The notes below the pieces were generated by a model. That model did not search any database. It saw only the letters and a list, made by a program, of their open reading frames with translations, and was not told where the DNA came from. Below are positions 5,603 to 63,957 of a stretch of DNA of 64,000 nt, one piece after another (position 1 is the first letter of the stretch; the number at the start of each line of letters is the position of its first letter). The position numbers were made by a program, and so were the translations under genes. This DNA is from Escherichia phage ECD7: sequence record NC_041936.1; one strand, given 5' to 3'.

Positions 5603-5725
5603 TACATGTAAAAACTACACAAAAGGATATCGCTTCGCGAACTCCTACGGAGTATAACATTTGTGTTACAATATGTAGTGATTAATAATTAACCAAAGAT
5701 ACATTTTCTATGTTCTAAAGATCTT

Positions 5726-5751
5726 TCTTCGTTTTGATCATAATTTAATCA
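5726..5751. repeat. direct repeat copy 2 (TCTTCGTTTTGATCATAATTTAATCA)
   Basis: identical to 5577-5602; flanking bases also similar. Confidence 0.8.
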
Positions 5752-5804
5752 AACAGTATTAATATTGTGCACATGTAAACTAAAATTATGTTAATAACAG
5801 ATAC

Positions 5805-5837: not shown

Positions 5838-6275
5838 TTATTTGTTGATAACGATCTGATTTCGGCGAATGGTAACATTACTCTTAGAGATGATCAGATC
5901 ATCCGGCACTACGTTAGTTTTGTATGGTTGGAAGCGAACAAGCATCTGATTGCGTTTAGACCCTTCCTTAATCTTGATTTCCATCTGGATATTGTTGCCT
6001 ACGTGAGCAACCGCAATTTCACCTTTATTCTCATAGACCCACTTGCTGGTAACGTCTCCAGCAAAAGCCTTAATAACTTGCAATGCTTCGTCGTATGCGG
6101 TAGAGCTGTGAACTTTCAGAAGGCCAGCCGTAGCAAGACGTGAGCAGGTGATCGCCGGAGATTGCCAAACATCAACATTAATTTGCTCAATCAGAGTAAC
6201 ACCGCCCTGATCAACTGCTTTGAATGCTTCGAACATTGCCTTTTTCATTGCTACGTGGTTTTTACGGAATTTCAT
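5838..6275 (-). CDS. hypothetical protein (145 aa)
   Basis: ORF followed by a terminator; no recognisable motif. Confidence 0.5.
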   Translation of the reverse strand: MKFRKNHVAMKKAMFEAFKAVDQGGVTLIEQINVDVWQSPAITCSRLATAGLLKVHSSTAYDEALQVIKAFAGDVTSKWVYENKGEIAVAHVGNNIQMEIKIKEGSKRNQMLVRFQPYKTNVVPDDLIISKSNVTIRRNQIVINK

Positions 6276-20452: not shown

Positions 20453-22504
20453 TTACATTTTAAATTTATCTGGCATTGCGTCTACAGATACCAGATCAGC
20501 GATAAGCTGACGTAGAGTTGCCTTATCTGCTTTCTTACGTTCGGTTTTAGCTTCGCTAATGAAGCTGGAGAAAGACAGGTCAGAAGCAGGTTTAACAACA
20601 CCCTCACGGATGAATGCATCACCGTCCGCGATCATCTCACCAGATTCTTGTAATGCTGCCAGTTCACTTTTGTTCATAATATGTGCCTCAATGTAATAAG
20701 TTTCTTGTGAATCCGTCGATGCCGTAGCACGAGTTACCGTATCAAAGGATAACACAACACCGCGAGGAAGTAAAATCTCGCATTCTTTGTAAGCAAATGC
20801 TTTGTTACCTACTGGCAATACAGGGATGTTTTCCGCGCCAGCGATAGAGAAAGCAACATTAGCGCCACCTTCACCGCGAGAGCCAGCCATAGAATCAACA
20901 CCAGCAACGGCACTAGCCACGTTTGCATTCCAGCCACCAAAAATATTAGGCGCAAGGGAAGTGCTCACATAGTTTTTAAAGTAAAACGCTTTTTGCTTAC
21001 GTGCAGTTTCCCACATTTGCGACCGGAAGTCCATACCACGATACAGAATAGTACCCGGATCAAGTTTAACACCATAGTTAGAGAAGGCATTATCCAGTGC
21101 ATCGCACATCTTGACCAATTCTTCTGGATCTGCGATTCCCTCAAACTCTTCCAGCTTGCGATCAGTTAGGAAGTTGTTCATATTGATGTATGCTGCATCG
21201 GCATATTCGCTCAACACAAAACCTTCCGCGCCCGGCAGATCAAGATCAATATCTGCCATCATTTCACCCATGTTGCTAGCAATTGCTTCAAACATACCGG
21301 ACGCAACATTACGAAGGGCATCGGTTTTAATCTGGGTGATATGACTACGCAGCATTTCAGCTTTTACATCTGCTGGCATAGACTGGTCTACTCGATCCAT
21401 TGCCAGGGCGGTGATCTTGTTTTCGAATACTTCCTCGCTCATGATTTCTTTTAAGCGTTTGATTGAGGCTGCGATAACTTCCGCAGACAACGGATCATAT
21501 TGATCCTGAACTTTTACCAGTTCGCTTACTGCGTATTTTGCATCGGCTTCGCTTTCAAAAATAGTACGCATGAAACCATAGCGAGTGATAATATCACTTG
21601 TCCAGTCATTCAGAGAACGGGCGGTTGAACGTTCTAAGGCTTGACGGTCAATCAGAGTATTAAACTGTTTCTTAGGTTCGGCTTCGGTGATATCTTCTTC
21701 CGGTTTAAGATTAATTTTTTCTGGATGATTCACGTAGTCGCTGTTATAGGTCGCTTGAGTTTTCAGCATTTCTTCTTTAGTCAAACGAGATTTAGCCGCT
21801 ACGCGTTGTTCTGCTTCCGCGTTTCGTTCTTCTTCTGACACAAGACTAGCCGCATACGCCTCATCTTTAGTCAGAGATTCACCAGTAGCCTTAGATACCC
21901 AGCGATCACCTAAATCACTTTCTACTTTAGTGAACAAGGATTCATCAAGTTTAATCCCTTTAATCTTATCAATCGCCATCCCGCGACGTTTGACAACAAC
22001 TAAAGCGATCTTTTTGCTGGTCATTACTTCCTGCTGGAATACTTCAAACTTCGGTGTACGACGCACCAAACGCTCTATAACGCGCTTAACCAGTTCGGTC
22101 TTACCTTTCATGCGGGATACGTTAAAACGGAACATAACAGCGTCTAATTGCGCTTTACGGGCTGTTTCCATAACCACATCAAAAGCACTTGCCATAACTG
22201 CAATCGGGTTATCACCTAGACCATTTTTAAGCTGTACAATACGACCGCTTTTGTTCATTTCACACAGTACAACGTGTGCGGTCTTGTCACCCATACGAAT
22301 AATTTTAGGTGTTTTGTTGGTGAAGTTGCAAAGACGGACAATCACATCTTTATCGCGTGTCTGTACTGCAAAAAGCTGTTTAGGATTCTGCTTAGGCTTT
22401 AAGCATTGTACCGGAGCAATACTGCCAAAGTTTTCTTCCTCTTCCGTCAACAGCCATTTCTCGAAAGATTCAATCATTAGATCGTCGATTTCTAAGTTAA
22501 ACAT
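20453..22504 (-). CDS. alt: Alt ADP-ribosyltransferase (packaged internal head protein)
   Basis: 683 aa (T4 Alt is 682); C-terminal ART motifs; position after gene 54 as in T4. Confidence 0.85.
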   Translation of the reverse strand: MFNLEIDDLMIESFEKWLLTEEEENFGSIAPVQCLKPKQNPKQLFAVQTRDKDVIVRLCNFTNKTPKIIRMGDKTAHVVLCEMNKSGRIVQLKNGLGDNPIAVMASAFDVVMETARKAQLDAVMFRFNVSRMKGKTELVKRVIERLVRRTPKFEVFQQEVMTSKKIALVVVKRRGMAIDKIKGIKLDESLFTKVESDLGDRWVSKATGESLTKDEAYAASLVSEEERNAEAEQRVAAKSRLTKEEMLKTQATYNSDYVNHPEKINLKPEEDITEAEPKKQFNTLIDRQALERSTARSLNDWTSDIITRYGFMRTIFESEADAKYAVSELVKVQDQYDPLSAEVIAASIKRLKEIMSEEVFENKITALAMDRVDQSMPADVKAEMLRSHITQIKTDALRNVASGMFEAIASNMGEMMADIDLDLPGAEGFVLSEYADAAYINMNNFLTDRKLEEFEGIADPEELVKMCDALDNAFSNYGVKLDPGTILYRGMDFRSQMWETARKQKAFYFKNYVSTSLAPNIFGGWNANVASAVAGVDSMAGSRGEGGANVAFSIAGAENIPVLPVGNKAFAYKECEILLPRGVVLSFDTVTRATASTDSQETYYIEAHIMNKSELAALQESGEMIADGDAFIREGVVKPASDLSFSSFISEAKTERKKADKATLRQLIADLVSVDAMPDKFKM

Positions 22505-22820: not shown

Positions 22821-22849
22821 ATTATAGGGGATCACCGATCCCTTGTCAA
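22821..22849 (-). promoter_or_regulatory. sigma70-like early promoter with palindromic spacer (PeSL-type)
   Basis: minus strand TTGACA - 17 nt GGGGATC..GATCCCC spacer - TATAAT. Confidence 0.6.
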
Positions 22850-23377: not shown

Positions 23378-23707
23378 TTATAGTCTCCTGAATGGATCAT
23401 CACGTAAATCAATATCTTTTAAGAACTCATCCCATGAATGGCGGATATTGTTCTTAATTCTCCAGATAAGCGCAGGGATTGAACGCTCTCCCATCTGGAA
23501 GTAAGGATCATATGATCCGTATGCCCAATATGCTACTACAATTCCACAATCAGCGCAATAGTATTCTATTTCACTTGCTGGCGACCAAAGTCCATCAATA
23601 TGATCAGTGATCTTGCTTTCGATGTTATGGCTATGACAATCAGGGCAACGGATGCAATGACCTTGTTTATCGTAATTTGACGTTAGAGAATACTTAAACA
23701 ATCTCAT
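23378..23707 (-). CDS. zinc-ribbon protein (109 aa)
   Basis: CxxC...CxxC (CIRCPDC ... CADCG); TAATG coupling to the methyltransferase-like gene. Confidence 0.5.
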   Translation of the reverse strand: MRLFKYSLTSNYDKQGHCIRCPDCHSHNIESKITDHIDGLWSPASEIEYYCADCGIVVAYWAYGSYDPYFQMGERSIPALIWRIKNNIRHSWDEFLKDIDLRDDPFRRL

Positions 23708-24423
23708 TATAGATCCTTATTGGCTTCAAATACTGCCTTTGCGAATCCTCGCGGCGTAAGTGACCTGATAGTCTTTGTTCTGGTTCCTTTCCCGCCTAGC
23801 TTAGAATGCTGTTTGCTGTACCCTTTATTAATCTGCAACGGTTTCTTTTCTGGCATTATAAAGCCTTGTCCGGTCCATAAGCAAGTCTTTTTCGGGTACA
23901 TATCACGGGCGGCAATATACTCAGGAAACGTAGGATGCTTATCATCTTCCGGCAAATAACCGCCATATTCCCACGGATGGAACATGTAATCAGGCTTACG
24001 CCACATACTAGAGATAACGCTTACAGGATTCTCTATCATATAGGGAACTCCTAGCCATTCACCCAAATAAGCGGTTATTTTAGCTGCCCGTACATCATGA
24101 ACTTGAATCAATGGTCCTTGTTCTCGTTTCTTTCGTTCAAAGTGTGCAGCGCCACTAACAGCTAAATTGGTGCACGGTGGGAATGCAAATATAATATCCG
24201 GTTTCCCCCATTCAAGGTCCATTGCTCTTTCCAGCCAGTTCAAATCAATCCAGGTGTTTACATAGGTAATGTTTGGATGTTCAAATCTGGTATTATACTT
24301 TTTGTATGTACCGTGGTCGGCGTCATCCGCATTAAAGCAGACTACCTTATGACCTGCTTTAGCCCATTCTAGCCCCATTATCCCCGATCCGTCAAAGTTG
24401 CAGAATATTAATTTTTGTTTCAT
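23707..24423 (-). CDS. cytosine-5 methyltransferase-like protein (238 aa)
   Basis: N-terminal FxGxG (FCNFDGSGIMG), catalytic-type FPPC, and ENP motif in the order of C5-MTase motifs I, IV, VI; short for a DNA MTase. Confidence 0.45.
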   Translation of the reverse strand: MKQKLIFCNFDGSGIMGLEWAKAGHKVVCFNADDADHGTYKKYNTRFEHPNITYVNTWIDLNWLERAMDLEWGKPDIIFAFPPCTNLAVSGAAHFERKKREQGPLIQVHDVRAAKITAYLGEWLGVPYMIENPVSVISSMWRKPDYMFHPWEYGGYLPEDDKHPTFPEYIAARDMYPKKTCLWTGQGFIMPEKKPLQINKGYSKQHSKLGGKGTRTKTIRSLTPRGFAKAVFEANKDL

Positions 24424-24982: not shown

Positions 24983-24996
24983 CACTTTTTATAAAA

Positions 24997-25164
24997 TTAT
25001 TTGTTAATTTCTGGTGCGTTGCTCGGATAGTAACCTTCTTTAACGCCCAGGTATTTCGCAACCATCCCTACAATCTTCTGTGCTACTACAATGTCAAATT
25101 TCAGATAATCTTCGCCGTGGGTTTCAATGATATATGCTTCACATGCTGCTTTAGTCTCGAACAT
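24997..25164 (-). CDS. small protein (55 aa), paralog of 28255-28422
   Basis: MFETKAACEAYIIETHGEDYLKFDIVVAQKI...; 50/55 residues identical to the second copy. Confidence 0.5.
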   Translation of the reverse strand: MFETKAACEAYIIETHGEDYLKFDIVVAQKIVGMVAKYLGVKEGYYPSNAPEINK

Positions 25165-25197
25165 TTTGATTCTCCTATTTCGTTTCGGTATGGGTGT

Positions 25198-25227
25198 ATT
25201 ATAGGGGATCTCCCGATCCCCGTCAAC
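25198..25227 (-). promoter_or_regulatory. sigma70-like early promoter with palindromic spacer
   Basis: minus TTGACG - GGGATCGGGAGATCCCC - TATAAT. Confidence 0.6.
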
Positions 25228-25240
25228 AACTTTTTTAAAA

Positions 25241-25522
25241 TTATTCGTGATTAGTTTCGATGTTGTGCATTTTGCACCAGTTCAGCCAATCGCCCAGATC
25301 TTGATAGTTGATGCTTTTATCTGCTGCCATCGTTTTTGTCTTGATACCCATATGTGCGTTATGAGTAAGCATTTTTACAGTGAACTCAATTTTATCGCCT
25401 TTAGCTTTAACATCAACCAGTTTGGTCCACTGGCTACCAGCGCCGCGAATGTTCATGCCAACGATGTTTCCGATGTATGCTTCTTTGTTTTTCAGGATTT
25501 CGGTTGCTTTGATGAATTTCAT
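25241..25522 (-). CDS. small hypothetical protein (93 aa)
   Basis: ORF with its own promoter. Confidence 0.5.
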   Translation of the reverse strand: MKFIKATEILKNKEAYIGNIVGMNIRGAGSQWTKLVDVKAKGDKIEFTVKMLTHNAHMGIKTKTMAADKSINYQDLGDWLNWCKMHNIETNHE

Positions 25523-25555
25523 TTTTGATTCTCCAGTTCGTTTCGGTATGGGTGT

Positions 25556-25584
25556 ATTATGCTATGTTCTTACTTTGGTGTCAA
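25556..25584 (-). promoter_or_regulatory. sigma70-like early promoter (no palindrome)
   Basis: minus TTGACA - 17 nt - CATAAT. Confidence 0.5.
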
Positions 25585-25591
25585 CAACTTT

Positions 25592-25861
25592 TTAGATATT
25601 TTCAGAAATAAATTTTAAAACTTGACGTAAATGTTTCTCATCTTTGATAGTCGCCGGAAGTTCTTCTTTTACTTCCTGTGCAAGATAGATATTTCCGTTC
25701 CAAGTGAAAGATCCGTCTTCGTTTACGCGATAGCTGAACATCCACTCGCAATCATTTTCGATTTCATATACACACAGAAGGGTGTAATCGTTAAAGCTAT
25801 TGATTTCAAGGTCGAAGCCGTGACGTTTTGCAAAGTTGGTAGTGGTTTTAGTCAGTGCCAT
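25592..25861 (-). CDS. small hypothetical protein (89 aa)
   Basis: ORF with its own promoter. Confidence 0.5.
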   Translation of the reverse strand: MALTKTTTNFAKRHGFDLEINSFNDYTLLCVYEIENDCEWMFSYRVNEDGSFTWNGNIYLAQEVKEELPATIKDEKHLRQVLKFISENI

Positions 25862-25901
25862 TGTTTGATTCTCCTAAGTGGTATCTAGTTTCGATGGGTG
25901 T

Positions 25902-25930
25902 ATTATGCTATACACAGGATCTGGTGTCAA
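25902..25930 (-). promoter_or_regulatory. sigma70-like early promoter
   Basis: minus TTGACA - 17 nt - CATAAT. Confidence 0.5.
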
Positions 25931-25954
25931 TGCCTTTTTTAAAATTTTATGCAA

Positions 25955-25980
25955 TAAAAAAGCCGACGCTATGGTCGGCT
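25955..25980 (-). terminator. rho-independent terminator
   Basis: AGCCGAC/GTCGGCT hairpin with A-run on plus. Confidence 0.55.
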
Positions 25981-25987
25981 AATAAAA

Positions 25988-26296
25988 TCATTTAGACAAA
26001 TAATCATTCTGTGCAATCCGGTCGGCGTATGCTGGTGTTATGTCAATCGCCAGCACTTTAACGCGTGCTTTCTTGCGACCTGGGTTTTCTCGTAACCAGT
26101 GCTCATGACCGTGAATATTTTTATACTGCGATGCTTCTTCGAAGGTACGGATCGGACCTGGGTAATCAGCGTAAAGGATCTCTAGATCTTCGGTGATGTA
26201 AAAATATACATCGTAATTGCTGTTCTCTAGCTTAAGCAGAGACTTTCGGAACATTGGGAGATTTTCGCGGGTAAATTCAAAGATATTATCTTTCAT
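25988..26296 (-). CDS. HxHW-family small protein, member 1 (102 aa)
   Basis: YDVYFYITEDLEI...HGHEHWL...KVLAIDI; shares the family motif with five paralogs. Confidence 0.55.
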   Translation of the reverse strand: MKDNIFEFTRENLPMFRKSLLKLENSNYDVYFYITEDLEILYADYPGPIRTFEEASQYKNIHGHEHWLRENPGRKKARVKVLAIDITPAYADRIAQNDYLSK

Positions 26297-26319
26297 AGTA
26301 TTATCCTCAATAGTTGGAT

Positions 26320-26340
26320 GAAAAGGGGCGTTAACGCCCC
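26320..26340 (-). terminator. GC hairpin (terminator or attenuator)
   Basis: GGGGCG-TTAA-CGCCCC between two same-strand genes. Confidence 0.4.
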
Positions 26341-26346
26341 CATATA

Positions 26347-26634
26347 TTAAAACAGTCCTTCCTGTACACCGTAGTAGAGTTCGTCGCTGATAATTTCATT
26401 AATGCGACGGTGTGCATATTCCTGATTTGCGAAGTTGTCAGCAAGTTCTACTTTAGTTTCGCCGTCATGAGTCCATTTAGTGATAACTTTACCATCTGCA
26501 AATTTGAAGTTGAACTCTTTAGCTACTGCATCGCGTACCAGACGTGCAAACTTATTGTTGCGGATTGCATTGTCGGTTTCGTGTGCAGCGTGAGCAAATT
26601 TGTTAACTTTCAGAGTGATAGTGATGTATGCCAT
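26347..26634 (-). CDS. small hypothetical protein (95 aa), paralog of 29640-29951
   Basis: shared segment AKEFNxK. Confidence 0.5.
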   Translation of the reverse strand: MAYITITLKVNKFAHAAHETDNAIRNNKFARLVRDAVAKEFNFKFADGKVITKWTHDGETKVELADNFANQEYAHRRINEIISDELYYGVQEGLF

Positions 26635-26680
26635 AATTTGATTCTCCTAGTTAGAAAGTGTATCTCGTTTCGATGGGGAT

Positions 26681-26709
26681 ATTATGCTATACCCCCGATC
26701 TGGTGTCAA
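26681..26709 (-). promoter_or_regulatory. sigma70-like early promoter
   Basis: minus TTGACA - 17 nt - CATAAT. Confidence 0.5.
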
Positions 26710-26715
26710 CACTTT

Positions 26716-26994
26716 TTATAAAATAATTTTTTGATATTTTTCTATGATGTTCGTGTAAGTCACATCAACCGCTAGCACCGTTGCTTCGAATCCACCGTTT
26801 AGCCAATGGCTATGATCATGGTCGTGAAAGAAACCTAGTCCAGTACGAAGACCTTCTTTATATTCTGCGCGTACATTCAGTTTGTCGTCGATAAACAGAT
26901 AAAACCATGAATTTTTACTAGGATTGATGATACAACCTTTCAGATTAGGGAGAATATCACGACTAAGAATAAATTTATCACCTACTTTGAACAT
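26716..26994 (-). CDS. HxHW-family small protein, member 2
   Basis: WFYLFIDDKLNV...HDHDHSHWL...VLAVDV; start set at ATG with RBS (the track start is GTG). Confidence 0.55.
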   Translation of the reverse strand: MFKVGDKFILSRDILPNLKGCIINPSKNSWFYLFIDDKLNVRAEYKEGLRTGLGFFHDHDHSHWLNGGFEATVLAVDVTYTNIIEKYQKIIL

Positions 26995-26998
26995 AATA

Positions 26999-27319
26999 TT
27001 AGTCCTCACTTATAAGGTCAAACCAATTGTTTTTCGCATAATGCTTAATGCGTGCTTGATCTGCTTCCGCTGGTGATAGATTCCATGCAACCACTACAAC
27101 TTCTGACGCATCGTCATCAGTTTCTGATACCCAATGATTGTGATTCATACAGTTATTTGCTATCGAGTGAGCAAATGATTTCATCACTGGAGACGTATAA
27201 TCATAGTAACGGATTTTCAGATTTTCATCAACATACAAATAGATCGTATAAGGTTTATATTCAGTAACCAGTAACAGACAGTTACGCAATTCTGGGAAAA
27301 TCTTTTTAGTTAATTTCAT
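26999..27319 (-). CDS. HxHW-family small protein, member 3 (106 aa)
   Basis: YTIYLYVDENLKI...NHNHWV...VVVAWNL. Confidence 0.5.
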   Translation of the reverse strand: MKLTKKIFPELRNCLLLVTEYKPYTIYLYVDENLKIRYYDYTSPVMKSFAHSIANNCMNHNHWVSETDDDASEVVVVAWNLSPAEADQARIKHYAKNNWFDLISED

Positions 27320-27521
27320 ATTCTAGTTCTCCGTAATACACAGTAATCCATTTTTCTTCATACTTTGTATCTTTCCAGCACACAACCCCGTTTACTGTGC
27401 AATCTTTGGAATTGACGAATGATTCATATTGTTCTGCATCTTCCATCATTTCATGAGCGGTCTTTTCATCGAATATATCGCAGATCGCTTTATATGCTCG
27501 ATAATCTTTAAATTTGCTCAT
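27306..27521 (-). CDS. small protein MSKFKDY..., tandem paralog a
   Basis: N-terminus MSKFKDYRAY shared with the adjacent gene. Confidence 0.45.
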   Translation of the reverse strand: MSKFKDYRAYKAICDIFDEKTAHEMMEDAEQYESFVNSKDCTVNGVVCWKDTKYEEKWITVYYGELEYEIN

Positions 27522-27523
27522 AA

Positions 27524-27733
27524 TTAACACCACTCAAGAGTTTTTGAAAACACATCTATCCATTGTTGAGTATATGCGGTTTCTTTCCATGATACAATAC
27601 CAGTCGAATAATGGTTTTTGTTTCCAGAAAAGGACGGGCATTTTGATGCATCTTCCATCATCTTTTCGGCGAACTCTGGTGCGTATACTCGCAAGATCTG
27701 TTGATATGCTTTGTAGTCTTTAAATTTGCTCAT
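27524..27733 (-). CDS. small protein MSKFKDY..., tandem paralog b (69 aa)
   Basis: N-terminus MSKFKDYKAY; W...W.....W pattern shared. Confidence 0.45.
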   Translation of the reverse strand: MSKFKDYKAYQQILRVYAPEFAEKMMEDASKCPSFSGNKNHYSTGIVSWKETAYTQQWIDVFSKTLEWC

Positions 27734-27998
27734 AATCGTTAACTACCTTATCAGCTTCTTTTATTGTTTTTACATCAACTGCGATAATACGTAAAGGTTC
27801 GTCGAAGGTCCACCAATGATCGTGAATATCAGCTTGTGATTTATCACCAAAGGAATCACGAATATCATTTTTACATTTATAGCTAATGTGACCGTTATAG
27901 TCAACATAAAGGTAATTATCGAAAATCGGCGTTTTTAAGATCATACCGAAAAATCTTTCTTTGTGTGTCTTATCCAGCGTTGCAGTAATTCGCATCAT
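27720..27998 (-). CDS. HxHW-family small protein, member 4 (92 aa)
   Basis: NYLYVDYNGHI...HDHWW...IIAVDV. Confidence 0.55.
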   Translation of the reverse strand: MMRITATLDKTHKERFFGMILKTPIFDNYLYVDYNGHISYKCKNDIRDSFGDKSQADIHDHWWTFDEPLRIIAVDVKTIKEADKVVNDYEQI

Positions 27999-28010
27999 AA
28001 TATATTCCTC

Positions 28011-28190
28011 TTAGAAAGGGATGGTCATTTCTTGAGCTTGTACATTCTCGTTAGGATTAAACTTCATCCAACCGATATTGTCTACCAGCATATACACATT
28101 TTTATCATATCCTACGTGAGTAGTCAACACTAAATGTGCTTTACCTTCAACGATGATTTCCATGTACTTCTGAACTTCGATAGCTTTCAT
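28011..28190 (-). CDS. small hypothetical protein (59 aa)
   Basis: ATG with GGAGA RBS; below the track cutoff. Confidence 0.35.
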   Translation of the reverse strand: MKAIEVQKYMEIIVEGKAHLVLTTHVGYDKNVYMLVDNIGWMKFNPNENVQAQEMTIPF

Positions 28191-28222
28191 TTTGATTCTC
28201 CGTTTGTTGTCTTGATGGGAGT

Positions 28223-28251
28223 ATCTTACTACTCCCTTTAATCATTGTCAA
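28223..28251 (-). promoter_or_regulatory. promoter-like element with conserved stem-loop (weak -10 TAAGAT)
   Basis: minus TTGACA - 17 nt - TAAGAT overlapping the GGGAGTAGTAAGATACTCCC palindrome; 30 bp identical to 63911-63940. Confidence 0.4.
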
Positions 28252-28254
28252 CGA

Positions 28255-28422
28255 TTATTTGTTAATTTCCGGTGCGTTGCTTGGATAGTAACCTTCTTTA
28301 ACACCCAGATATTTTGCAACCATTCCGGTGATCTTCTGTGCCACTACGATATCGAATTTCAGGTAGTCTTCACCGTGGGTTGCTACAATGTATGCTTCGC
28401 ATTCTGCTTTAGTCTGGAACAT
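28255..28422 (-). CDS. small protein (55 aa), paralog of 24997-25164
   Basis: MFQTKAECEAYIVATHGEDYLKFDIVVAQKI... Confidence 0.5.
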   Translation of the reverse strand: MFQTKAECEAYIVATHGEDYLKFDIVVAQKITGMVAKYLGVKEGYYPSNAPEINK

Positions 28423-28455
28423 TTTGATTCTCCTTTATCTCGTTGGTATGTGTGC

Positions 28456-28484
28456 ATTATAGGGGATCACCGATCCCCTGTCAA
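28456..28484 (-). promoter_or_regulatory. sigma70-like early promoter with palindromic spacer
   Basis: minus TTGACA - GGGGATCGGTGATCCCC - TATAAT. Confidence 0.6.
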
Positions 28485-28489
28485 CAACT

Positions 28490-28783
28490 TTATAATGCTT
28501 TATATGCGTATTTCATAAATTTGTCTGCCACTTCATTGGCATGTTCAGATTCTACGCCTGATTCGAGAACAATAGCTAGGTCGGTTTCGTCATTCCCGCC
28601 GTACCAATGATTTGATGTTCGATTTTTTTCAATTGGAAATTGGTCACTTTTATCTGTGCGACAAAATACATCTAAATGCTCGTCGATGTAAAAGATCCAA
28701 TCTTCATAAAGAATAACGGTATTAGCCAGATTTTTATTGCCTTCAACGAAAGGTTCGGCTACAAACAAATTAGTATGTTCCAT
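28490..28783 (-). CDS. HxHW-family small protein, member 5
   Basis: WIFYIDEHLDV...SNHWY...LAIVLE; start at internal Met with GAGGA RBS. Confidence 0.45.
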   Translation of the reverse strand: MEHTNLFVAEPFVEGNKNLANTVILYEDWIFYIDEHLDVFCRTDKSDQFPIEKNRTSNHWYGGNDETDLAIVLESGVESEHANEVADKFMKYAYKAL

Positions 28784-29048: not shown

Positions 29049-29369
29049 TCACACAAAATGGCGTGTCAATGCTTCTTTTGCGGTTCCGCTAAGACTTTCG
29101 ATCTCGCCTGGCATAACATCAACCGCCAGAACTTCTACAACATCCTCGGACCCTAACCAGTGAGTATGGCCTTTGTAGAACTTGATAACCAGACTACCTT
29201 CCTCGTCCCATTTAACGCTATCGCTAGCCCACCACACATCACCGTCGATAAAGTTGATGTAAAGCACACTACGCAACATTGAATTAATTACTTTCAATAC
29301 TGCGCCTTTCATCTCTTCCACGGTATGGTCTTCCATTTTGAAGACCATACCTACCTGAACTTTTGCCAT
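29049..29369 (-). CDS. HxHW-family small protein, member 6 (106 aa)
   Basis: VLYINFIDGDV...GHTHWL...VLAVDV. Confidence 0.55.
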   Translation of the reverse strand: MAKVQVGMVFKMEDHTVEEMKGAVLKVINSMLRSVLYINFIDGDVWWASDSVKWDEEGSLVIKFYKGHTHWLGSEDVVEVLAVDVMPGEIESLSGTAKEALTRHFV

Positions 29370-29600: not shown

Positions 29601-29630
29601 AGTATAGGGGATCTCCCGATCCCCTGTCAA
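29601..29630 (-). promoter_or_regulatory. sigma70-like early promoter with palindromic spacer
   Basis: minus TTGACA - GGGGATCGGGAGATCCCC - TATACT. Confidence 0.55.
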
Positions 29631-30038: not shown

Positions 30039-30515
30039 TTATTTTTCTTGATGCTCGCGCTCGTACTTTTCGAAATAAAATTCTACTGGCTGGTCATGAA
30101 TTGACAGCAAGCCAAAGCGTTTAGCCGCTCGCAATCCCATATTGCGCTGAATGTACTTCTGGAAGTTCTCGCGTATACACTTACGCCAGTATTCTAAGCC
30201 CATACAGCTTTTATAAAGATTGCATTGTACACACGCCGGATTCATGTTATCAAGTATATCATGTTCCGGTTTATGCATTCCTACAACCTTATACTTCCAC
30301 GACCCATCATCATTACGGGCAATTCGTCCATTTTCATCATAGACTACCTTTGAGCGTCGCAATACTGGTTTGATATGGTCTGCGTGCCAGCGATCCCCTA
30401 GTTCCTCGCCACAATAGGCACAACGCCCACCGTATTTCATTTTCAGGATCTGGCGTTGCTCTTTCTTTGACAATTTTTTAGGTTTAGGGGCTTTCGCCCC
30501 TTCATTATCACACAT
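30039..30515 (-). CDS. HNH endonuclease (158 aa)
   Basis: CAYCGEELGDRWHADHIKP ... CVQCNLYK HNH zinc-finger nuclease motif; overlaps the 3' end of ligase by 8 nt. Confidence 0.65.
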   Translation of the reverse strand: MCDNEGAKAPKPKKLSKKEQRQILKMKYGGRCAYCGEELGDRWHADHIKPVLRRSKVVYDENGRIARNDDGSWKYKVVGMHKPEHDILDNMNPACVQCNLYKSCMGLEYWRKCIRENFQKYIQRNMGLRAAKRFGLLSIHDQPVEFYFEKYEREHQEK

Positions 30516-32010
30516 CGAATACCTCTTTTACTGTATTTGCAGTGGTCTTGTCGTAGCGAATACGTTTGATGATTGGGAGAAATAAAGAGAACTCCGGTTC
30601 ATCTTCTTTACGTGATTTGCTGCGGATATACCCGTTGCATGTCATCTCAATGACTTTTCCAATCAGGTTATGACGGTCAGTCCATAACATTTCTCGGTCG
30701 AGTTCATTTCGACGATCGAACGGAATTACACGTTCAGTACCATCATCACCTTTTTCGGTTGTAGTGTCGGTTAATCCCGATCCGGTGTTAGTCATCATTC
30801 GTCCGCACGCACTACGGACAGTAAAACCGCCTACCTTATTGGGGTCTTTACTATGCGGATATACATCAACAATTTCCGCGTCGAAGTCAATCACTTCTTT
30901 AAATTTAACCTGATCTTTACTACGGCGATCTTCAAATACACCATGTAAATTTTTAAGGATAATACCTTCTAAGCCCATGTTTACATAGCGATGATATACT
31001 TCGCGAGCTTCATCGATATTGTTAACTACAGTGTTTTCGATTATCTGAACACGAGGATCGTTAAGTTCTTCAACAATCTGTTTTAGCTCTTCGAATCGAT
31101 CTTTATATTGCTTCGTTGCTTTCTCGTTTCCGTAATACACATCACGGTCGATAACATCCCAGACAGTGTAAACAATACATTGGGCTTCTTCTTTTGGAAT
31201 AGTTCCTTTCAGTGATTTGTTGAGGATACCATTTCCGGTCTGACGATCTGCAACAACGGATTCTTTCACCGCTTCCGCTACTGGCGTTAATGGCATTTCC
31301 TCTTCTTCAAATATCCATGACAGAGTACCATCATAAACGCTCTCAACGAAGTTCTGCGCTGGTGTTTGCGAAAGGGTAGGCATATATACCAATTCGCCAT
31401 CTAGAACAATTCCACGGCCTCGTAGACTCTCTAAAACCGCAAACAAATCATCAAGCCCTTGATAGGTATTACCTGAACGGGTATAGATTGCTAATGTTTC
31501 CCCGTCAATATCAGCCATACCACGAGCGCCATCGCTTTTAAGTTGTGCATACGCCGGATATTTGATATTGGCAATGGTCTTATCAGAACATGACGATGCA
31601 AGGTGGCACGGCTGCTGGGGGATCAGTTTCTTCCATACCTTGTTTGCAGTGGTAGCGGAACAACCGCATTCCAGGTCACGATTCAGGACCATCATTGCAA
31701 CTTTAGCATCATCTTCTGACAAGCAAGTCAGAGTATCGGTAACTAGCTGTAATGCTGCATTACCAGTTACTTGACGTGTGGCAAGTTTATTTTTAAAGAC
31801 TTGTAATGCACCGGATAAAGACAATACAGACGAATAGCGCGATGGTTTATCGTATTTCTTTACGCCAAACGTAACCTGTTTGCAATATGCCAGATAAAAG
31901 CATTCTTTCAGTGTTTCATTGCTTGCAGATTCTTTCAGGATCTTTTCTTTCAGCGATGTTTTGTCTGTTGCTGCAAGCTGATTAATGATATTAAGAATTG
32001 ACATTTTCAC
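30508..32010 (-). CDS. 30: ATP-dependent DNA ligase gp30
   Basis: 500 aa; GLEGIILKN, KGTIPKEEAQC, FKEVIDFDAEIVDVYPH colinear with recalled T4 DNA ligase. Confidence 0.9.
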   Translation of the reverse strand: MKMSILNIINQLAATDKTSLKEKILKESASNETLKECFYLAYCKQVTFGVKKYDKPSRYSSVLSLSGALQVFKNKLATRQVTGNAALQLVTDTLTCLSEDDAKVAMMVLNRDLECGCSATTANKVWKKLIPQQPCHLASSCSDKTIANIKYPAYAQLKSDGARGMADIDGETLAIYTRSGNTYQGLDDLFAVLESLRGRGIVLDGELVYMPTLSQTPAQNFVESVYDGTLSWIFEEEEMPLTPVAEAVKESVVADRQTGNGILNKSLKGTIPKEEAQCIVYTVWDVIDRDVYYGNEKATKQYKDRFEELKQIVEELNDPRVQIIENTVVNNIDEAREVYHRYVNMGLEGIILKNLHGVFEDRRSKDQVKFKEVIDFDAEIVDVYPHSKDPNKVGGFTVRSACGRMMTNTGSGLTDTTTEKGDDGTERVIPFDRRNELDREMLWTDRHNLIGKVIEMTCNGYIRSKSRKEDEPEFSLFLPIIKRIRYDKTTANTVKEVFDV

Positions 32011-38476: not shown

Positions 38477-38505
38477 ATATTACTACCCCCGTTCCATGCT
38501 GTCAA
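38477..38505 (-). promoter_or_regulatory. promoter-like element with stem-loop
   Basis: minus TTGACA then GGGGGTAGTAATATACCCCC palindrome; -10 approximate. Confidence 0.4.
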
Positions 38506-38724
38506 CTACTTTTTAATGACAAGTTCGAATTTTGCTACCTTGCGTCCTCGTTTATTGAAAGCAACCCACGGACGGGTTTCAATGTAGAACAATTCTTCAC
38601 CAATAATGAATACTGGCTGATTGTAAAGGCGACCCATCAGGTCACGCTGGCGAATGGTAGTAGATTCGTATACTTCGCCTACTACAAAGTGTTTGCTGAT
38701 AGAGTCGGTGCAGATAAATTTCAT
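38506..38724 (-). CDS. small hypothetical protein (72 aa)
   Basis: ORF behind the promoter at 38758-38786. Confidence 0.45.
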   Translation of the reverse strand: MKFICTDSISKHFVVGEVYESTTIRQRDLMGRLYNQPVFIIGEELFYIETRPWVAFNKRGRKVAKFELVIKK

Positions 38725-38757
38725 TTTGATTCTCCTTTGTTTCGTTTCGATGGGAGT

Positions 38758-38786
38758 ATCTTACTACCCCCGTTATTCAGTGTCAA
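38758..38786 (-). promoter_or_regulatory. promoter-like element with conserved stem-loop
   Basis: minus TTGACA - 17 nt - TAAGAT within a GGGGGTAGTAAGATACTCCC-type palindrome. Confidence 0.4.
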
Positions 38787-38794
38787 CTACTTTT

Positions 38795-39013
38795 TTACTT
38801 GTTGTATTCATTCCACCATTGGGTGAGCTTATCAATTATTTTTGTGTTTCTATCCAACTTATCCCACCGTTTTCGAGGGTTTATCAACCGGAATAGGTAA
38901 GGTGTACTTGTTAAGTGGACTCGGTCAATATAGTGATTGATGTACTGTTTTTCGATTCTAAGTTTCATCTTTTTACGATGAAAATATGCAATAACTTGTT
39001 CTTCTGTTTCCAT
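38795..39013 (-). CDS. small hypothetical protein (72 aa)
   Basis: ORF behind the promoter at 39038-39066. Confidence 0.45.
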   Translation of the reverse strand: METEEQVIAYFHRKKMKLRIEKQYINHYIDRVHLTSTPYLFRLINPRKRWDKLDRNTKIIDKLTQWWNEYNK

Positions 39014-54468: not shown

Positions 54469-55608
54469 ATGACACAAGATATAGAATTACGCAATACTGG
54501 AATTAGGTTTGCGCATTTCGACGAAGACTCTGCGACATTTACCAGCATTTCAGAAAATAACTCTGTGATGTATAAGCTGGAAGTGCGCGGATCTAATGCG
54601 GATTCTACCAAACCAGCAAGGATTAGATTTAATGGAGTGGAGATCGTTGGCACTGGCTATGAAAATGGCCTAAATTTTAAAGTTCTTACTCCAACTGGAC
54701 AACTACACGAAGAAAAGGTATTCTATGGTCGCGGTGCTGTTTTGGCAATGCGTGATTATCTTTCTTTGCTGAAAGGTGACTATATCATTGCGATGGCAAC
54801 GCATGGAGAATTGTTTGCAGATCCGATAAGTGATGATGTATTTTCTAAGCTGGGATCTGTATCATTCCCGAATCACATTTTGTTACAGCAAATGCCTCGT
54901 GTATCATATGCAGCAATTTATTCTACTAAAATGGGTAAAATTGTGTGCGAAGGTATGCAAGCGACCCACGGGGAAGGACAAGATTCATCTATACAAATTG
55001 AGAAAGTCTATGATACTATAGATGATCTTGCTATAACAGGAACACCACAACGATTTTTAGATTATCCGGTTGAGTATGTTAGCGAAGATGCCGAACATTT
55101 CGAGCTAATACAATGGCCTCACGATGAGATCAGCGCCCCACTTGAGGATTTTAACATAAAGGCAGGTGACAAACTATCAATATCCTTTGAATTGTTCCGT
55201 GATAGTGCCGCAGCCGCAGCCAACGTAACAGCGCGTTTCTATCACAACTACTTCACCGATGGACAATATCAAACTGGTGTTCGATACAATGCCAGCAAAA
55301 AAGACCAATGGGAAAAGTTTGAAGCCGTCTATACCGTACCGGAAGGAGTTGATAGTGTAGTAACTGGTTGTATCAGATATCCAACCAACTCAAGTGAAGG
55401 TATTGTTAAAATTAGAAACATACTAATAACGCCGATCAGTGGAGTCGTCAAAACTACTGGTCCTACTTCATTTGGTGTTAATGGTGTTAGAACAACTCAT
55501 ATTCAGGATAACGGTGATTTTACTAACCCTGTAATGAGTCTTCTTAAACTGCCTAGAGATAATAAACACATCACATCCAACAACTTTAAAGAGTTCGATG
55601 TTGATTAA
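54469..55608 (+). CDS. 35: long tail fibre hinge connector gp35
   Basis: 379 aa directly after gp34 (T4 gp35 is 372 aa). Confidence 0.7.
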   Translation: MTQDIELRNTGIRFAHFDEDSATFTSISENNSVMYKLEVRGSNADSTKPARIRFNGVEIVGTGYENGLNFKVLTPTGQLHEEKVFYGRGAVLAMRDYLSLLKGDYIIAMATHGELFADPISDDVFSKLGSVSFPNHILLQQMPRVSYAAIYSTKMGKIVCEGMQATHGEGQDSSIQIEKVYDTIDDLAITGTPQRFLDYPVEYVSEDAEHFELIQWPHDEISAPLEDFNIKAGDKLSISFELFRDSAAAAANVTARFYHNYFTDGQYQTGVRYNASKKDQWEKFEAVYTVPEGVDSVVTGCIRYPTNSSEGIVKIRNILITPISGVVKTTGPTSFGVNGVRTTHIQDNGDFTNPVMSLLKLPRDNKHITSNNFKEFDVD

Positions 55609-55619
55609 CATTTTTAACA

Positions 55620-55650
55620 AGCCGATCCTCGTGGTCGGCTTTATTTTTAT
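55620..55650 (+). terminator. rho-independent terminator after gene 35
   Basis: GCCGATC..GGTCGGC hairpin followed by a T-run. Confidence 0.6.
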
Positions 55651-55769
55651 ACAGTTGGTTAAATTATAACCAAAACGAAGAAAGATCTTTAGAATATAGA
55701 AAAGTTTGTTTCGGTTAAAAATTAGTCAGTGCCTACGGCACGTCGCGAAGCGATATTTTGTTAACATTC

Positions 55770-55810: not shown

Positions 55811-57301
55811 ATGGCAGATTTGAAATATGGATCTACTGTAGGTGGATCTCCCATTTGGACGCAAGGAAACTTGACGATCCAGCCAGCGGGGGATCAGCTT
55901 TTCTACAAAGGTCATAAAATCTATACCGCTTTTGATAGACCTTCGGCTACCGATTTTGATGCTGTTAGTGCATCCGAAGGTGGAACATTTCAAAAGCAAG
56001 TTCATTTCGAGGAAGGTTTAAGCGTAGGTAGCGCATCGGCTGGAGAAACCAAAAAGAATGGTATCTTTAAAGGTCAGAGTGACGCTGCTAATTTTGACGG
56101 CGTAAGCTGGGGTTTGCATTCATGGAAGTCAATCGGCTTTGTTAATGCCCGTGATGGCGTTATTATGGCGTATATTGACACCACAACGGGCGAATTTAAG
56201 TCTAAAGGGACTATCGAAGGGACAACCATTAAAGACACAGGTCAACGCGTCTATAGCCCTGTTAATAAACCAACGAATAATGATTTAGATTTGGTGTCTC
56301 GTCGCGGTGATACTCTCACAGGAACATATAATTTAAACACTGTCACTGTTAAACTATCGGTTGATTCGAAATTAATTGCAAGGGAACGTGATTTAATTAA
56401 TTTTGATGCGACTAAGATCTATTATGGTAACGTTCTTGATACGTTGGTCTTCCGAAGTAAAGATGAGCCTACCATTTTTGTTAATGGCAAAGAAGGTCGT
56501 TTTTATCACACCAACAATAAACCAACTAAAGCCGATGTTGGACTAGGAAATGTCACCAATGATGCACAGGTTAAACGTGCTGGTGATATTATGGAAGGTA
56601 ACTTGCAAGCGCCTAGAATGTTGGCGACAAACGATCCTGCTGGTCCTAATGAATTGGTTCGTTTGAGCTACTTTGAGAGAAAATCAATGGTAGCAAATCC
56701 AACCATCATAGGAAACGTTGATTGGAACACTCTTATTAATCGCGGTATCTATCGTGTGGAAAATGCTGGGTCGGGTACTAATAAACCGTCTGATAGCTAT
56801 TATAACGGCGTTTTGATGGTATATCGCCCAGAAGATGCGGTCGGCACTCGTCGAATTGTTCAGGTGTATTATCCTGAATCTATTGACCATCCGATGTGCT
56901 GGCGTTCTTGTTCTAATGAATCATGGACTGCATGGAACTATGTAGATCACCGTAAATTAGCCGATATTCGCTATGTTAACGTAACTGGCGATACCATGAC
57001 AGGACCGTTAACTGTTCCGGCTGCAAACGGTGTTAGAACGGCTAAAACTAACTATAACGGGGATAACTGTTATGCGGCGTTAAGCGGTGCTGATGGTACT
57101 GCTATGATTCACCGCATTAGTGATATTAAAGGGACCGAAAAGCTGGGGATCACCCACGACTCAAAGGTCGTGTTTTTCCGTTCTAGAAACAATACTCAAA
57201 CCGTGGACCGCTATCAGCTTTATCATGAAGGCAATAAGCCTACTCCGGCTGATGTTGGAGCGGTTCCACTTAATGCGGTGATTGATTTTGGTACTTTCTA
57301 A
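55811..57301 (+). CDS. 36: long tail fibre distal-half subunit gp36 (enlarged)
   Basis: 496 aa; repeated NKPT..D(V/L)G fibre motifs; position between 35 and 37. Confidence 0.65.
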   Translation: MADLKYGSTVGGSPIWTQGNLTIQPAGDQLFYKGHKIYTAFDRPSATDFDAVSASEGGTFQKQVHFEEGLSVGSASAGETKKNGIFKGQSDAANFDGVSWGLHSWKSIGFVNARDGVIMAYIDTTTGEFKSKGTIEGTTIKDTGQRVYSPVNKPTNNDLDLVSRRGDTLTGTYNLNTVTVKLSVDSKLIARERDLINFDATKIYYGNVLDTLVFRSKDEPTIFVNGKEGRFYHTNNKPTKADVGLGNVTNDAQVKRAGDIMEGNLQAPRMLATNDPAGPNELVRLSYFERKSMVANPTIIGNVDWNTLINRGIYRVENAGSGTNKPSDSYYNGVLMVYRPEDAVGTRRIVQVYYPESIDHPMCWRSCSNESWTAWNYVDHRKLADIRYVNVTGDTMTGPLTVPAANGVRTAKTNYNGDNCYAALSGADGTAMIHRISDIKGTEKLGITHDSKVVFFRSRNNTQTVDRYQLYHEGNKPTPADVGAVPLNAVIDFGTF

Positions 57302-63928: not shown

Positions 63929-63957
63929 ATCTTACTACTCCCTTAATCCGGTGTCAA
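63929..63957 (-). promoter_or_regulatory. promoter-like element with conserved stem-loop (TTGACA / TAAGAT)
   Basis: 30 bp identical to the element at 28206-28236. Confidence 0.4.

What the first reader, a model, noticed from the sequence alone, without database searches (positions are those of the whole stretch)
24997..25240. Duplicated gene cassette: 55 aa ORF plus its promoter present twice
The segment 24997-25240 and the segment 28255-28490 are about 85-90 percent identical at the DNA level. Each carries a 55 aa ORF (MFETKAACEAYIIETHGEDYLKFDIVVAQKI... vs MFQTKAECEAYIVATHGEDYLKFDIVVAQKI..., 50 of 55 residues identical) and its upstream palindromic promoter. The two copies sit 3.2 kb apart and bracket the paralogous family region. 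This is direct evidence of recent cassette duplication or transposition.
Basis: seen in the sequence. Interest (0 to 1): 0.5.

Follow-up and report, generated by a model that had tools for sequence, protein, structure and literature searches.

The report
Old duplicated early-gene cassette in RB49-like phage
The window is from an RB49-like (Krischvirus) T4-type coliphage, and the repeat is a real but ancient pair of small early genes (RB49 ORF191 and ORF205), each behind one of the phage's already described hairpin-containing early promoters (PeSLs), so it is ordinary and not a recent duplication.

Summary
Window 24996-25233 and 28254-28491 are 85.5% identical over 241 nt (E 9e-71). This is the largest dispersed repeat in the window. 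Each copy has a minus-strand 55-codon ORF (50/55 aa identical), a 33-nt leader with AGGAGA, and a consensus sigma-70 promoter with a GGGGATC..GATCCCC hairpin in its 17-nt spacer.

The window is a Krischvirus (97.8% to phage JEP8). The copies are RB49 ORF191 (A) and ORF205 (B). Their promoters are PeSLs (Arbiol et al. 2010), and that paper tested PeSL206/205, the promoter of copy B, as a strong promoter.

"Recent" is wrong. Of 25 CDS differences, 19 are at third codon positions. A-B dS is about 1.0 and dN/dS about 0.05, against dS 0.04-0.06 between orthologues. Fifty of 57 krischvirus records carry both copies, in two clean clades.

The promoter is not specific to the pair. A and B promoters are 77% alike, no closer than each is to PeSLs of unrelated genes.

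The repeats do recombine:
- Cognac and FL04 collapsed A x B and lost the interval.
- PTE-Eco09 shows conversion patches.
- JK32 and UPWr_E1 lack cassette A and have a chimeric PeSL at its site.

The protein (phrog_8009) has no known function.

The parts
24997..25164 (-). Copy A coding sequence, 55 aa (orthologue of RB49 ORF191 / RB49p191, phi1p191); phrog_8009, function unknown
   Evidence: ORF list. 98-100% aa identity to annotated hypothetical proteins in krischviruses. RB49 annotation. dN/dS 0.047 against copy B.
25165..25197 (-). Copy A 33-nt leader with Shine-Dalgarno AGGAGA (25171-25176), 6 nt before the ATG
   Evidence: Sequence read directly.
25198..25226 (-). PeSL193/191: sigma-70 early promoter of copy A. 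-35 TTGACG 25221-25226; -10 TATAAT 25198-25203; hairpin GGGGATC/GGGA/GATCCCC 25204-25221 filling the 17-nt spacer; AT-rich tract 25227-25240 upstream
   Evidence: Promoter scan 11/12. Pattern scan. RNA fold gives a 7-bp stem. Anatomy matches the PeSL description in PMC2839356.
28255..28422 (-). Copy B coding sequence, 55 aa (orthologue of RB49 ORF205 / RB49p205, phi1p205)
28423..28455 (-). Copy B 33-nt leader with Shine-Dalgarno AGGAGA (28429-28434)
   Evidence: Sequence read directly.
28456..28484 (-). PeSL206/205: sigma-70 early promoter of copy B. -35 TTGACA 28479-28484; -10 TATAAT 28456-28461; hairpin GGGGATC/GGT/GATCCCC 28462-28478
   Evidence: Promoter scan 12/12. Fold z -2.6. The -35-to--10 core is identical to the RB49 orthologue, and the RB49 PeSL206/205 gave about 13,000 Miller units in a lacZ fusion (PMC2839356).
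24954..24982 (-). PeSL191/190: the next promoter-hairpin element, starting 15 nt after the stop codon of copy A (hairpin GGGGAG/GATAA/CTCCCC). It is the right-hand boundary of cassette A and the recombination partner in the JK32 and UPWr_E1 deletion
28223..28251 (-). PeSL205/204: the next promoter-hairpin element, starting 3 nt after the stop codon of copy B. It is a different subclass, with stem GGGAGTA..TACTCCC overlapping the -10 box. It is the right-hand boundary of cassette B
25241..28254 (-). Interval bracketed by the two direct repeats. It holds 10 small early genes (RB49 ORF193-204 equivalents; ORF192, 195 and 196 absent here). The whole interval is missing in phages Cognac and FL04
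   Evidence: ORFs. blastn of Cognac and FL04 against the window shows a clean junction of 28254 to 25233 through a single hybrid cassette.

Best explanation
These are two paralogous, independently transcribed early-gene cassettes in the alt-to-ligase hyperplastic region of a Krischvirus (RB49-like T4-type phage). Each cassette is a PeSL (promoter-early stem-loop), a 33-nt leader with a strong ribosome-binding site, and a 55-codon gene. The PeSL is a consensus sigma-70 promoter read by unmodified host RNA polymerase right after infection, with a 7-bp G+C hairpin in its spacer. The gene encodes a small, mostly helical protein of unknown function (RB49 ORF191 and ORF205; phrog_8009). The split between the copies is old. 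It predates the divergence of all sampled krischviruses, and both copies have since been kept under strong purifying selection. The most likely origin (inferred, not shown) is homologous recombination at PeSLs. This could be excision of a PeSL+ORF mini-circle and reinsertion at another PeSL, or unequal exchange between PeSLs on replicating concatemers. Both copies end exactly at the neighbouring PeSLs. Today the two 240-bp copies and their flanking PeSLs act as substrates for the phage's recombination system, producing three kinds of event: A x B crossovers that delete the ~3.3-kb interval, short gene-conversion patches between the copies, and PeSL x PeSL crossovers that remove cassette A precisely.
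For: Identity of the window: 97.8% to Escherichia phage JEP8 over 5.5 kb, and all 57 hits are krischviruses. Gene names come from the RB49 and Phi1 annotations.

PeSL anatomy: -35, 17-nt spacer with hairpin, -10, AT-rich upstream tract, SD and ATG. This matches the published definition (PMC2839356). That paper measured strong promoter activity for PeSL206/205 and sequenced a mini-circle carrying ORFs 191-194.

Coding and selection: 19 of 25 differences fall at third positions, dN/dS 0.047.

Age: dS is 0.97 for A-B, against 0.04 (A-A) and 0.06 (B-B). There are two clean clades. By arithmetic, 50 of 57 krischvirus records have both copies.

Recombination products:
- Cognac and FL04 join the B upstream context to the A downstream context through one hybrid cassette. 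Their crossover points differ: -15..+6 in Cognac, and the -35 region in FL04.
- In PTE-Eco09 the A-locus copy carries a B-type tract from -33 to +23, and the B-locus copy carries an A-type tract from +50 to +80.
- JK32 and UPWr_E1 have a single chimeric PeSL between ORF193 and ORF190. Its 5' part is PeSL193/191 and its leader is that of PeSL191/190.
- MIZ4 joins ORF193 to PeSL186/185.

A and B are each other's nearest known relatives: dN 0.048, against 0.106 and 0.132 to the next homologue, P0003.
Against: The direction and mechanism of the original duplication cannot be read from the sequence. No empty-site allele exists for copy B. The left boundary of the duplicated unit lies inside PeSL sequence shared by many promoters. 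The promoters of A and B are no closer to each other than to other PeSLs, so the promoter may have been swapped since the duplication. The PeSL hairpins of these two cassettes lack a U-tract and are not called as intrinsic terminators. The published terminator role was shown for a different PeSL (211/210). The protein's function is unknown: no Pfam, PADLOC or PDB match, a low-confidence model (pLDDT 67.6) and no fold match.
Confidence: 0.85

Rival explanations
1. Recent cassette duplication or transposition: one copy was made from the other shortly before this genome was sampled.
For: 85% DNA identity including the promoter. PeSL mini-circles that could move cassettes are documented (PMC2839356).
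Against: dS is about 1.0 between the copies, against 0.04-0.06 between orthologues. Both copies sit at the same two loci in 50 krischvirus records. A and B form separate clades. There are fixed clade-specific amino-acid differences.
Confidence: 0.02
2. Not an intragenomic duplication but two separate acquisitions. A diverged homologous cassette from another phage entered a second PeSL site by PeSL-mediated exchange during co-infection, so the copies are xenologues.
For: The gene moves between unrelated phages. There are 70-72% aa homologues in Swiduovirus-type siphophages without a PeSL, and an 83% homologue in an unclassified contig. PeSLs are proposed as linkers for inter-phage exchange.
Against: A and B are closer to each other than to any other sequence in about 1.8 billion representatives. 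No donor lineage is known. This reading and an old duplication predict the same present-day sequence, so it is not excluded.
Confidence: 0.15
3. Remnant of an old segmental (block) duplication produced by unequal crossing-over between PeSLs, later eroded by indels, rather than movement of a single-gene cassette.
For: The same region holds other paralogues on both sides of copy B: a ~100-aa H-x-H-W family at 25988, 26716, 26999, 27720 and 29049, and a tandem pair at 27306/27524. Homologous recombination in T4-type concatemers is very active (established knowledge of T4 biology; discussed).
Against: The other paralogues are only 25-44% identical, far older than the 91% A/B pair. The candidate colinear pairs ORF198/ORF210 and ORF197/ORF206 show no significant similarity. 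Homology between the two loci stops one base after the stop codon.
Confidence: 0.1
4. Assembly artefact: a collapsed or misjoined repeat.
For: None beyond the general risk with repeats.
Against: The copies differ at 15% of positions, which is too divergent to be confused. The same arrangement occurs in 50 independent records, including RB49, Phi1, JSE and GEC-3S.
Confidence: 0.01

Closest known systems
PeSL + ORFan cassettes of RB49/phi1 (Arbiol, Comeau, Kutateladze, Adamia, Krisch 2010, PMC2839356; Comeau et al. 2014, PMC4122927)
   Same: Same phage genus and the same loci. Copy A is ORF191, which was on the sequenced 191-194 mini-circle. Copy B is ORF205, whose PeSL206/205 was the promoter assayed at about 13,000 Miller units. 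The anatomy is the same: AT-rich tract, -35, hairpin in the spacer, -10, SD, ATG. The natural indels found here have crossovers between the -10 box and the leader, as the published mini-circle junctions did.
   Different: The main text of those papers does not mention that ORF191 and ORF205 are paralogues. They also do not report recombination between whole cassettes (CDS included), which appears here as the Cognac/FL04 collapse and the PTE-Eco09 conversion tracts.
Phage 'morons' (Hendrix et al. 2000, as discussed in PMC2839356)
   Same: A single accessory gene carrying its own promoter, inserted between other genes and dispensable. Single-copy and interval-deleted phages exist in nature.
   Different: Morons are thought to arrive by illegitimate recombination, and their regulatory sequences are not the vehicle of movement. 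Here the boundaries are conserved repeated promoter elements, and all observed junctions are homologous crossovers.
Integron gene cassettes
   Same: Small promoter-associated single-ORF units, circular intermediates, and insertion at a recurring site.
   Different: There is no integrase, no attC or attI, and each cassette has its own promoter. Recombination appears to be general homologous recombination over roughly 20-240 bp of identity.
Direct-repeat-mediated deletions in T4 non-essential regions (Mosig et al. 1998, cited in PMC2839356)
   Same: Loss of blocks of small non-essential early ORFs through recombination at short repeated sequences containing G-rich and C-rich inverted motifs.
   Different: Here the repeat is a 240-bp diverged gene duplicate as well as the short promoter motifs.

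Membership tests
PeSL (promoter-early stem-loop) regulatory cassette | Sigma-70 consensus -35 and -10 hexamers at 17 +/- 1 nt spacing | tested here: met
   A: TTGACG/17/TATAAT, 11 of 12. B: TTGACA/17/TATAAT, 12 of 12.
PeSL (promoter-early stem-loop) regulatory cassette | G-rich/C-rich stem-loop within or overlapping the promoter | tested here: met
   [quoted passage not shown] Stems of 7-8 bp are predicted. This is the commonest published subclass.
PeSL (promoter-early stem-loop) regulatory cassette | AT-rich tract upstream of -35 containing or abutting the stop codon of the upstream gene; SD and ATG of the downstream ORF at the 3' end | tested here: met
   A has AATAATTTTAAAAAAGTTG upstream. 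B has ATTATAAAGTTG, with the ORF206 stop 5 nt from the -35 box. AGGAGA lies 6 nt before the ATG in both.
PeSL (promoter-early stem-loop) regulatory cassette | Located in a hyperplastic region, immediately upstream of a small ORFan | tested here: met
   The alt-to-gene 30 (ligase) region holds 10 PeSL-like promoters within 22.8-30.0 kb. The family is an ORFan: only 3 clusters at 50% identity in 1.8e9 representatives.
PeSL (promoter-early stem-loop) regulatory cassette | Strong early promoter activity in vivo | not testable with these tools
   Published for the RB49 orthologue of B's promoter (PeSL206/205, about 13,000 Miller units; PMC2839356). The window's -35-to--10 core is identical to RB49's. 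A's promoter has not been assayed.
PeSL (promoter-early stem-loop) regulatory cassette | Stem-loop acts as terminator or attenuator for upstream transcription | tested here: inconclusive
   The hairpins fold, but they are followed by UAUAAU rather than a U-tract and are not called by the terminator scan. The published assay used a different PeSL, 211/210.
PeSL (promoter-early stem-loop) regulatory cassette | Serves as a site of homologous exchange that generates indels of the flanked ORF | tested here: met
   Chimeric PeSL193/191::191/190 in JK32 and UPWr_E1 where cassette A is absent. MIZ4 has a deletion from PeSL193/191 to PeSL186/185.
Transposable element (IS / MITE-like) | Terminal inverted repeats, target-site duplication, or an associated transposase | tested here: not met
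   The homology boundaries are the -35 region of the cassette's own PeSL and the stop codon. The flanks are neighbouring PeSLs, with no TIR or TSD visible. No transposase lies among the neighbouring ORFs.
Integron cassette | attC recombination site and an integron integrase nearby | tested here: not met
   No integrase is annotated in this region in RB49, Phi1, JSE or GEC-3S. Each cassette has its own promoter.
phrog_8009 (phage protein family of unknown function) | Full-length profile match | tested here: met
   E 6.8e-38 (A) and 1.1e-38 (B), covering positions 1-55 of a 55-position profile.

The most novel reading that the evidence does not exclude
The ORF191/ORF205 pair could be the first natural example of the reinsertion half of the PeSL mini-circle model. 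Under this reading a PeSL+ORF unit was copied to a second PeSL site 3.3 kb away, which Arbiol et al. proposed but showed only for excision. The two diverged copies would then be retained because they have sub-functionalised: the clade-specific changes cluster in residues 3-15 and at residue 32. Together they would also act as a recombination bracket that makes the 10-gene accessory block between them easy to lose.
Probability: 0.25. Interest if true: 0.35.

Novelty: already known. Interest (0 to 1): 0.18.

Why it matters
It matters little beyond phage genomics. The element type, the genes and even one of the two promoters were described and tested in 2010. The modest added value is comparative. 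Public krischvirus genomes contain natural products of the recombination that the PeSL model predicts. These are a precise cassette loss with a chimeric PeSL, two independent A x B collapses that delete 10 or more early genes, and short conversion tracts. They also show that at least one copy of this 55-aa gene is kept in all 57 records. That makes the gene a reasonable candidate for a functional test of a small early phage protein.

Tried and rejected
Protein function led nowhere:
- Pfam, PADLOC and PDB sequence searches gave nothing.
- PHROGs gave only an unnamed family.
- The word-indexed search found 4 proteins, and the exhaustive phmmer search found 3 clusters, one of them a doubtful 1625-aa hit.
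- AlphaFold2 on a 5-sequence alignment gave pLDDT 67.6, with two helices and a disordered tail.
- Foldseek against BFVD gave no match better than E 1.9. I ran no further search on a low-confidence 55-aa model.

Other dead ends:
- Rfam at gathering threshold found nothing in the whole window.
- IMG/VR gave only one related locus.
- Block-duplication idea: ORF198 vs ORF210 and ORF197 vs ORF206 show no significant similarity.
- Literature: no paper in the library names RB49p191/205 or phi1p191/205. The two PeSL papers and Nolan et al. 2006 do not mention this paralogy. The supplementary tables of PMC2839356 are not held.
- The transposon and integron readings were rejected for lack of their defining features.

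Full report
**1. The observation**

- The repeat finder reports 24996-25233 and 28254-28491 as a two-copy family at 84% ungapped identity.
- MAFFT gives 87%.
- blastn gives 85.5% over 241 nt, with E 1.8e-74 pairwise and 9e-71 in a self-search of the window. It is the longest dispersed repeat in all 64 kb.
- The genes are on the minus strand: 24997..25164 (copy A) and 28255..28422 (copy B), 55 aa each.
- They differ at five residues: E3Q, A7E, I13V, E14A, V32T.
- Similarity starts a few bases upstream of the -35 hexamer. It covers the promoter, the 33-nt leader, the Shine-Dalgarno sequence and the whole CDS, and stops one base after the TAA stop.

**2. What the window is**

Megablast of 24000-29500 hits 57 phage records, all krischviruses (RB49-like T4-type phages, Straboviridae). 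The best is Escherichia phage JEP8 at 97.8%.
- In RB49 (NC_005066), copy A is RB49p191 (ORF191) and copy B is RB49p205 (ORF205). Phi1 uses the same numbering.
- The region lies between alt (window 20453..22504) and DNA ligase gp30 (30508..32010). It is one of the hyperplastic regions of small early genes.
- The window has the phi1 arrangement: ORF192 is absent, and a single promoter element separates ORF193 (25241..25522) from ORF191.

**3. The promoter is a PeSL**

The anatomy is:
- Copy A: TTGACG, a 17-nt spacer made of the hairpin GGGGATC-GGGA-GATCCCC, then TATAAT.
- Copy B: TTGACA, GGGGATC-GGT-GATCCCC, then TATAAT.
- Both have an AT-rich tract upstream and AGGAGA 6 nt before the ATG.

This is the "promoter-early stem-loop" (PeSL) described for RB49 and phi1 by Arbiol et al. 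2010 (PMC2839356). That paper bears directly on both copies.
- It cloned PeSL206/205, the promoter of copy B, and measured about 13,000 Miller units.
- It sequenced a mini-circle carrying ORFs 191-194, formed by a crossover between PeSL190/191 and PeSL194/195.
- The window's B promoter core is identical to RB49's.
- The terminator role claimed for PeSL hairpins was shown for a different PeSL (211/210). The two hairpins here lack a U-tract and are not called as intrinsic terminators, so I treat that function as unproven for them.

**4. The duplication is not recent**

- Of the 25 coding differences, 19 are at third codon positions.
- Nei-Gojobori gives pS 0.56, dS about 1.0, dN 0.047 and dN/dS 0.047.
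- Across the window plus 12 related loci, A-type copies are 96-100% identical to each other and B-type copies 94-100%. A versus B is 83-90%.
- Mean dS is 0.04 among A orthologues, 0.06 among B orthologues and 0.97 between A and B.
- tblastn finds 114 places in 64 records. Seven of these records are siphophages with one place each, which leaves 107 places in 57 krischvirus records. That works out to 50 genomes with both copies and 7 with one.

The split is therefore far older than the sampled genus. Both copies are protein-coding genes under strong purifying selection. An assembly artefact is excluded.

**5. The promoter is not specific to the pair**

In an alignment of ten PeSLs from 22.8-30.0 kb:
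- The A and B promoters plus leaders are 77% alike.
- A is 84% alike to the PeSL of the unrelated ORF209 (29601-29630).
- B is 77-78% alike to the PeSLs of ORF185 and ORF209.

Across genomes the hairpin loops (GGT, ACC, GGGA, ATC) are shuffled among orthologous PeSLs. GGT and ACC make the 17-mer exact reverse complements of each other. The pair-specific signal is therefore the CDS. The promoter is a member of a dispersed family that evolves in concert.

**6. The repeats recombine in nature**

I classified 44 sites that distinguish A from B in every copy and ran blastn of five loci against the window.
- **Cognac:** one cassette only. Its upstream context, promoter and leader are B-type up to -15. 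Its CDS from +6 on and its downstream context are A-type. Window 28254..25233 is missing.
- **FL04:** the same collapse, but with the crossover in the -35 region. This makes it an independent event.
- **PTE-Eco09:** the A-locus copy carries a B-type tract from -33 to +23. The B-locus copy carries an A-type tract from +50 to +80. These look like short gene-conversion patches.
- **JK32 and UPWr_E1:** both lack cassette A. ORF193 is followed by one chimeric PeSL, whose -35, hairpin and -10 come from PeSL193/191 and whose leader comes from PeSL191/190. [quoted passage not shown]
- **MIZ4:** ORF193 is joined to PeSL186/185, so ORF191-186 are lost.

Every one of the 57 krischvirus records keeps at least one copy.

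**7. Origin (inferred)**

Both copies are bounded on each side by PeSLs. The next -35 box begins 15 nt after the stop of A and 3 nt after the stop of B. There are no terminal inverted repeats, no target-site duplications, and no transposase or integrase.
- The simplest origin is PeSL-mediated homologous recombination, either by mini-circle reinsertion or by unequal exchange.
- A separate acquisition from a diverged phage cannot be excluded. However, A and B are each other's nearest relatives: dN 0.048, against 0.106 and 0.132 to the next homologue, P0003.
- In the contig that carries P0003, the gene directly follows and overlaps a homologue of ORF194, with no PeSL between them. This hints that the A neighbourhood is ancestral.
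- A block-duplication origin has little support.

**8. The protein**

The family is tiny.
- The indexed search found four proteins.
- The exhaustive phmmer search found three clusters at 50% identity among 1.8 billion representatives.
- There are 70-72% homologues in Swiduovirus-type siphophages, where the gene has an ordinary promoter without a hairpin.
- Pfam, PADLOC and PDB gave no hit. PHROGs places it in phrog_8009, function unknown.
- AlphaFold2 predicts two helices (residues 5-16 and 18-39) and a disordered but invariant tail, EGYYPSNAPEINK, at low confidence (pLDDT 67.6).
- Foldseek found nothing.

My working guess is a dispensable-in-the-lab early protein that binds a host component. 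This rests only on its early-promoter context and its conservation.

**9. Verdict**

It is wrong on age, and it overstates the promoter evidence. The feature is an already described kind of element in an already sequenced phage lineage. What I did not find in the PeSL papers is the ORF191/ORF205 paralogy itself and the natural A x B collapse and conversion products. These are small confirmations of the published model, so interest is low.

Noticed in passing
window 25988-26296, 26716-26994, 26999-27319, 27720-27998, 29049-29369 (all minus strand): A diverged paralogous family of 92-106 aa early proteins sharing an H-x-H-W ... (V/I)(L/V)A(V/I)D(V/I) motif, 25-33% identical (RB49 ORF197/199/200/203/208 equivalents). 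Four members lie between the two 55-aa copies and one lies outside. Function unknown.
   Followed up: partly
window 27306-27521 and 27524-27733 (minus strand): Tandem paralogue pair (71 and 69 aa, both starting MSKFKDY), 44% aa identity, also seen as a 97-nt DNA repeat at 70% (D7). These are the RB49 ORF201/202 equivalents.
   Followed up: partly
PeSL hairpins, e.g. window 28462-28478 and 22821-22849; loci L001, L003-L013: The hairpin loop differs between orthologous promoters of closely related phages. GGGGATC-GGT-GATCCCC and GGGGATC-ACC-GATCCCC are exact reverse complements, and GGGA and ATC loops also occur at the same loci. This suggests loop inversion by template switching, or frequent PeSL-to-PeSL conversion. 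Each stem also contains two GATC (Dam) sites.
   Followed up: partly
L014 4723-5165 (Logan SRR5584643 contig): A distant homologue (P0003, 83% aa to copy A) overlaps the stop of a homologue of window gene 25592-25861 (RB49 ORF194) in ATGGTGATG. There is no promoter between them, and one promoter and one terminator lie upstream. The opposite strand next to it carries PHP-domain and 2-hydroxyacid dehydrogenase genes. The contig has only weak similarity to any phage record.
   Followed up: partly
L002 2501-2656 (Escherichia phage vB_EcoS_swi2); also SeSz-2, D10, Pu29, Bas81: 70-72% aa homologues of the 55-aa protein occur in ~45-47 kb siphophages (Swiduovirus and relatives), next to the large terminase gene and behind an ordinary promoter without a hairpin. 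The coding sequence therefore travels between phage families independently of PeSLs.
   Followed up: partly
window 5679-5765 (+) and 55643-55728 (-): An 88-nt intergenic inverted repeat at 83% identity (E 2e-15), with shared core TTTTCTATnTTCTAAAGATCTTTCTTCGTTTTG. One copy lies beside the 145-aa ORF at 5838-6275, on its 3' side, and the other lies between two large plus-strand genes (54469-55608 and 55811-57301). Not explained.
   Followed up: partly
window 28179-28260 vs 38713-38795; also 38477-38505 and 63929-63957: A second PeSL subclass, TTGACA...GGGAGTAGTAAGATACTCCCATC, with the stem overlapping the -10 box, recurs at least four times across the window, 10-35 kb apart.
   Followed up: no
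L011 (phage PTE-Eco09) 2334-2884: In PTE-Eco09, copy B directly follows the ORF210 homologue. The ORF206-209 equivalents are missing, so this is another PeSL-bounded deletion next to the cassette.
   Followed up: no
L004 (phage Cognac) 6001-6168: The hybrid cassette in Cognac is A-type through the CDS, except for two adjacent B-type sites at +107 and +113. This may be a mismatch-repair patch from the heteroduplex of the A x B crossover.
   Followed up: no
window 23707-24423 (minus strand): A cytosine-C5 (Dcm-like) DNA methyltransferase gene (RB49 ORF189) lies about 0.6 kb downstream of copy A. It is lost together with copy A in phages MIZ4 and MIZ5.
   Followed up: no
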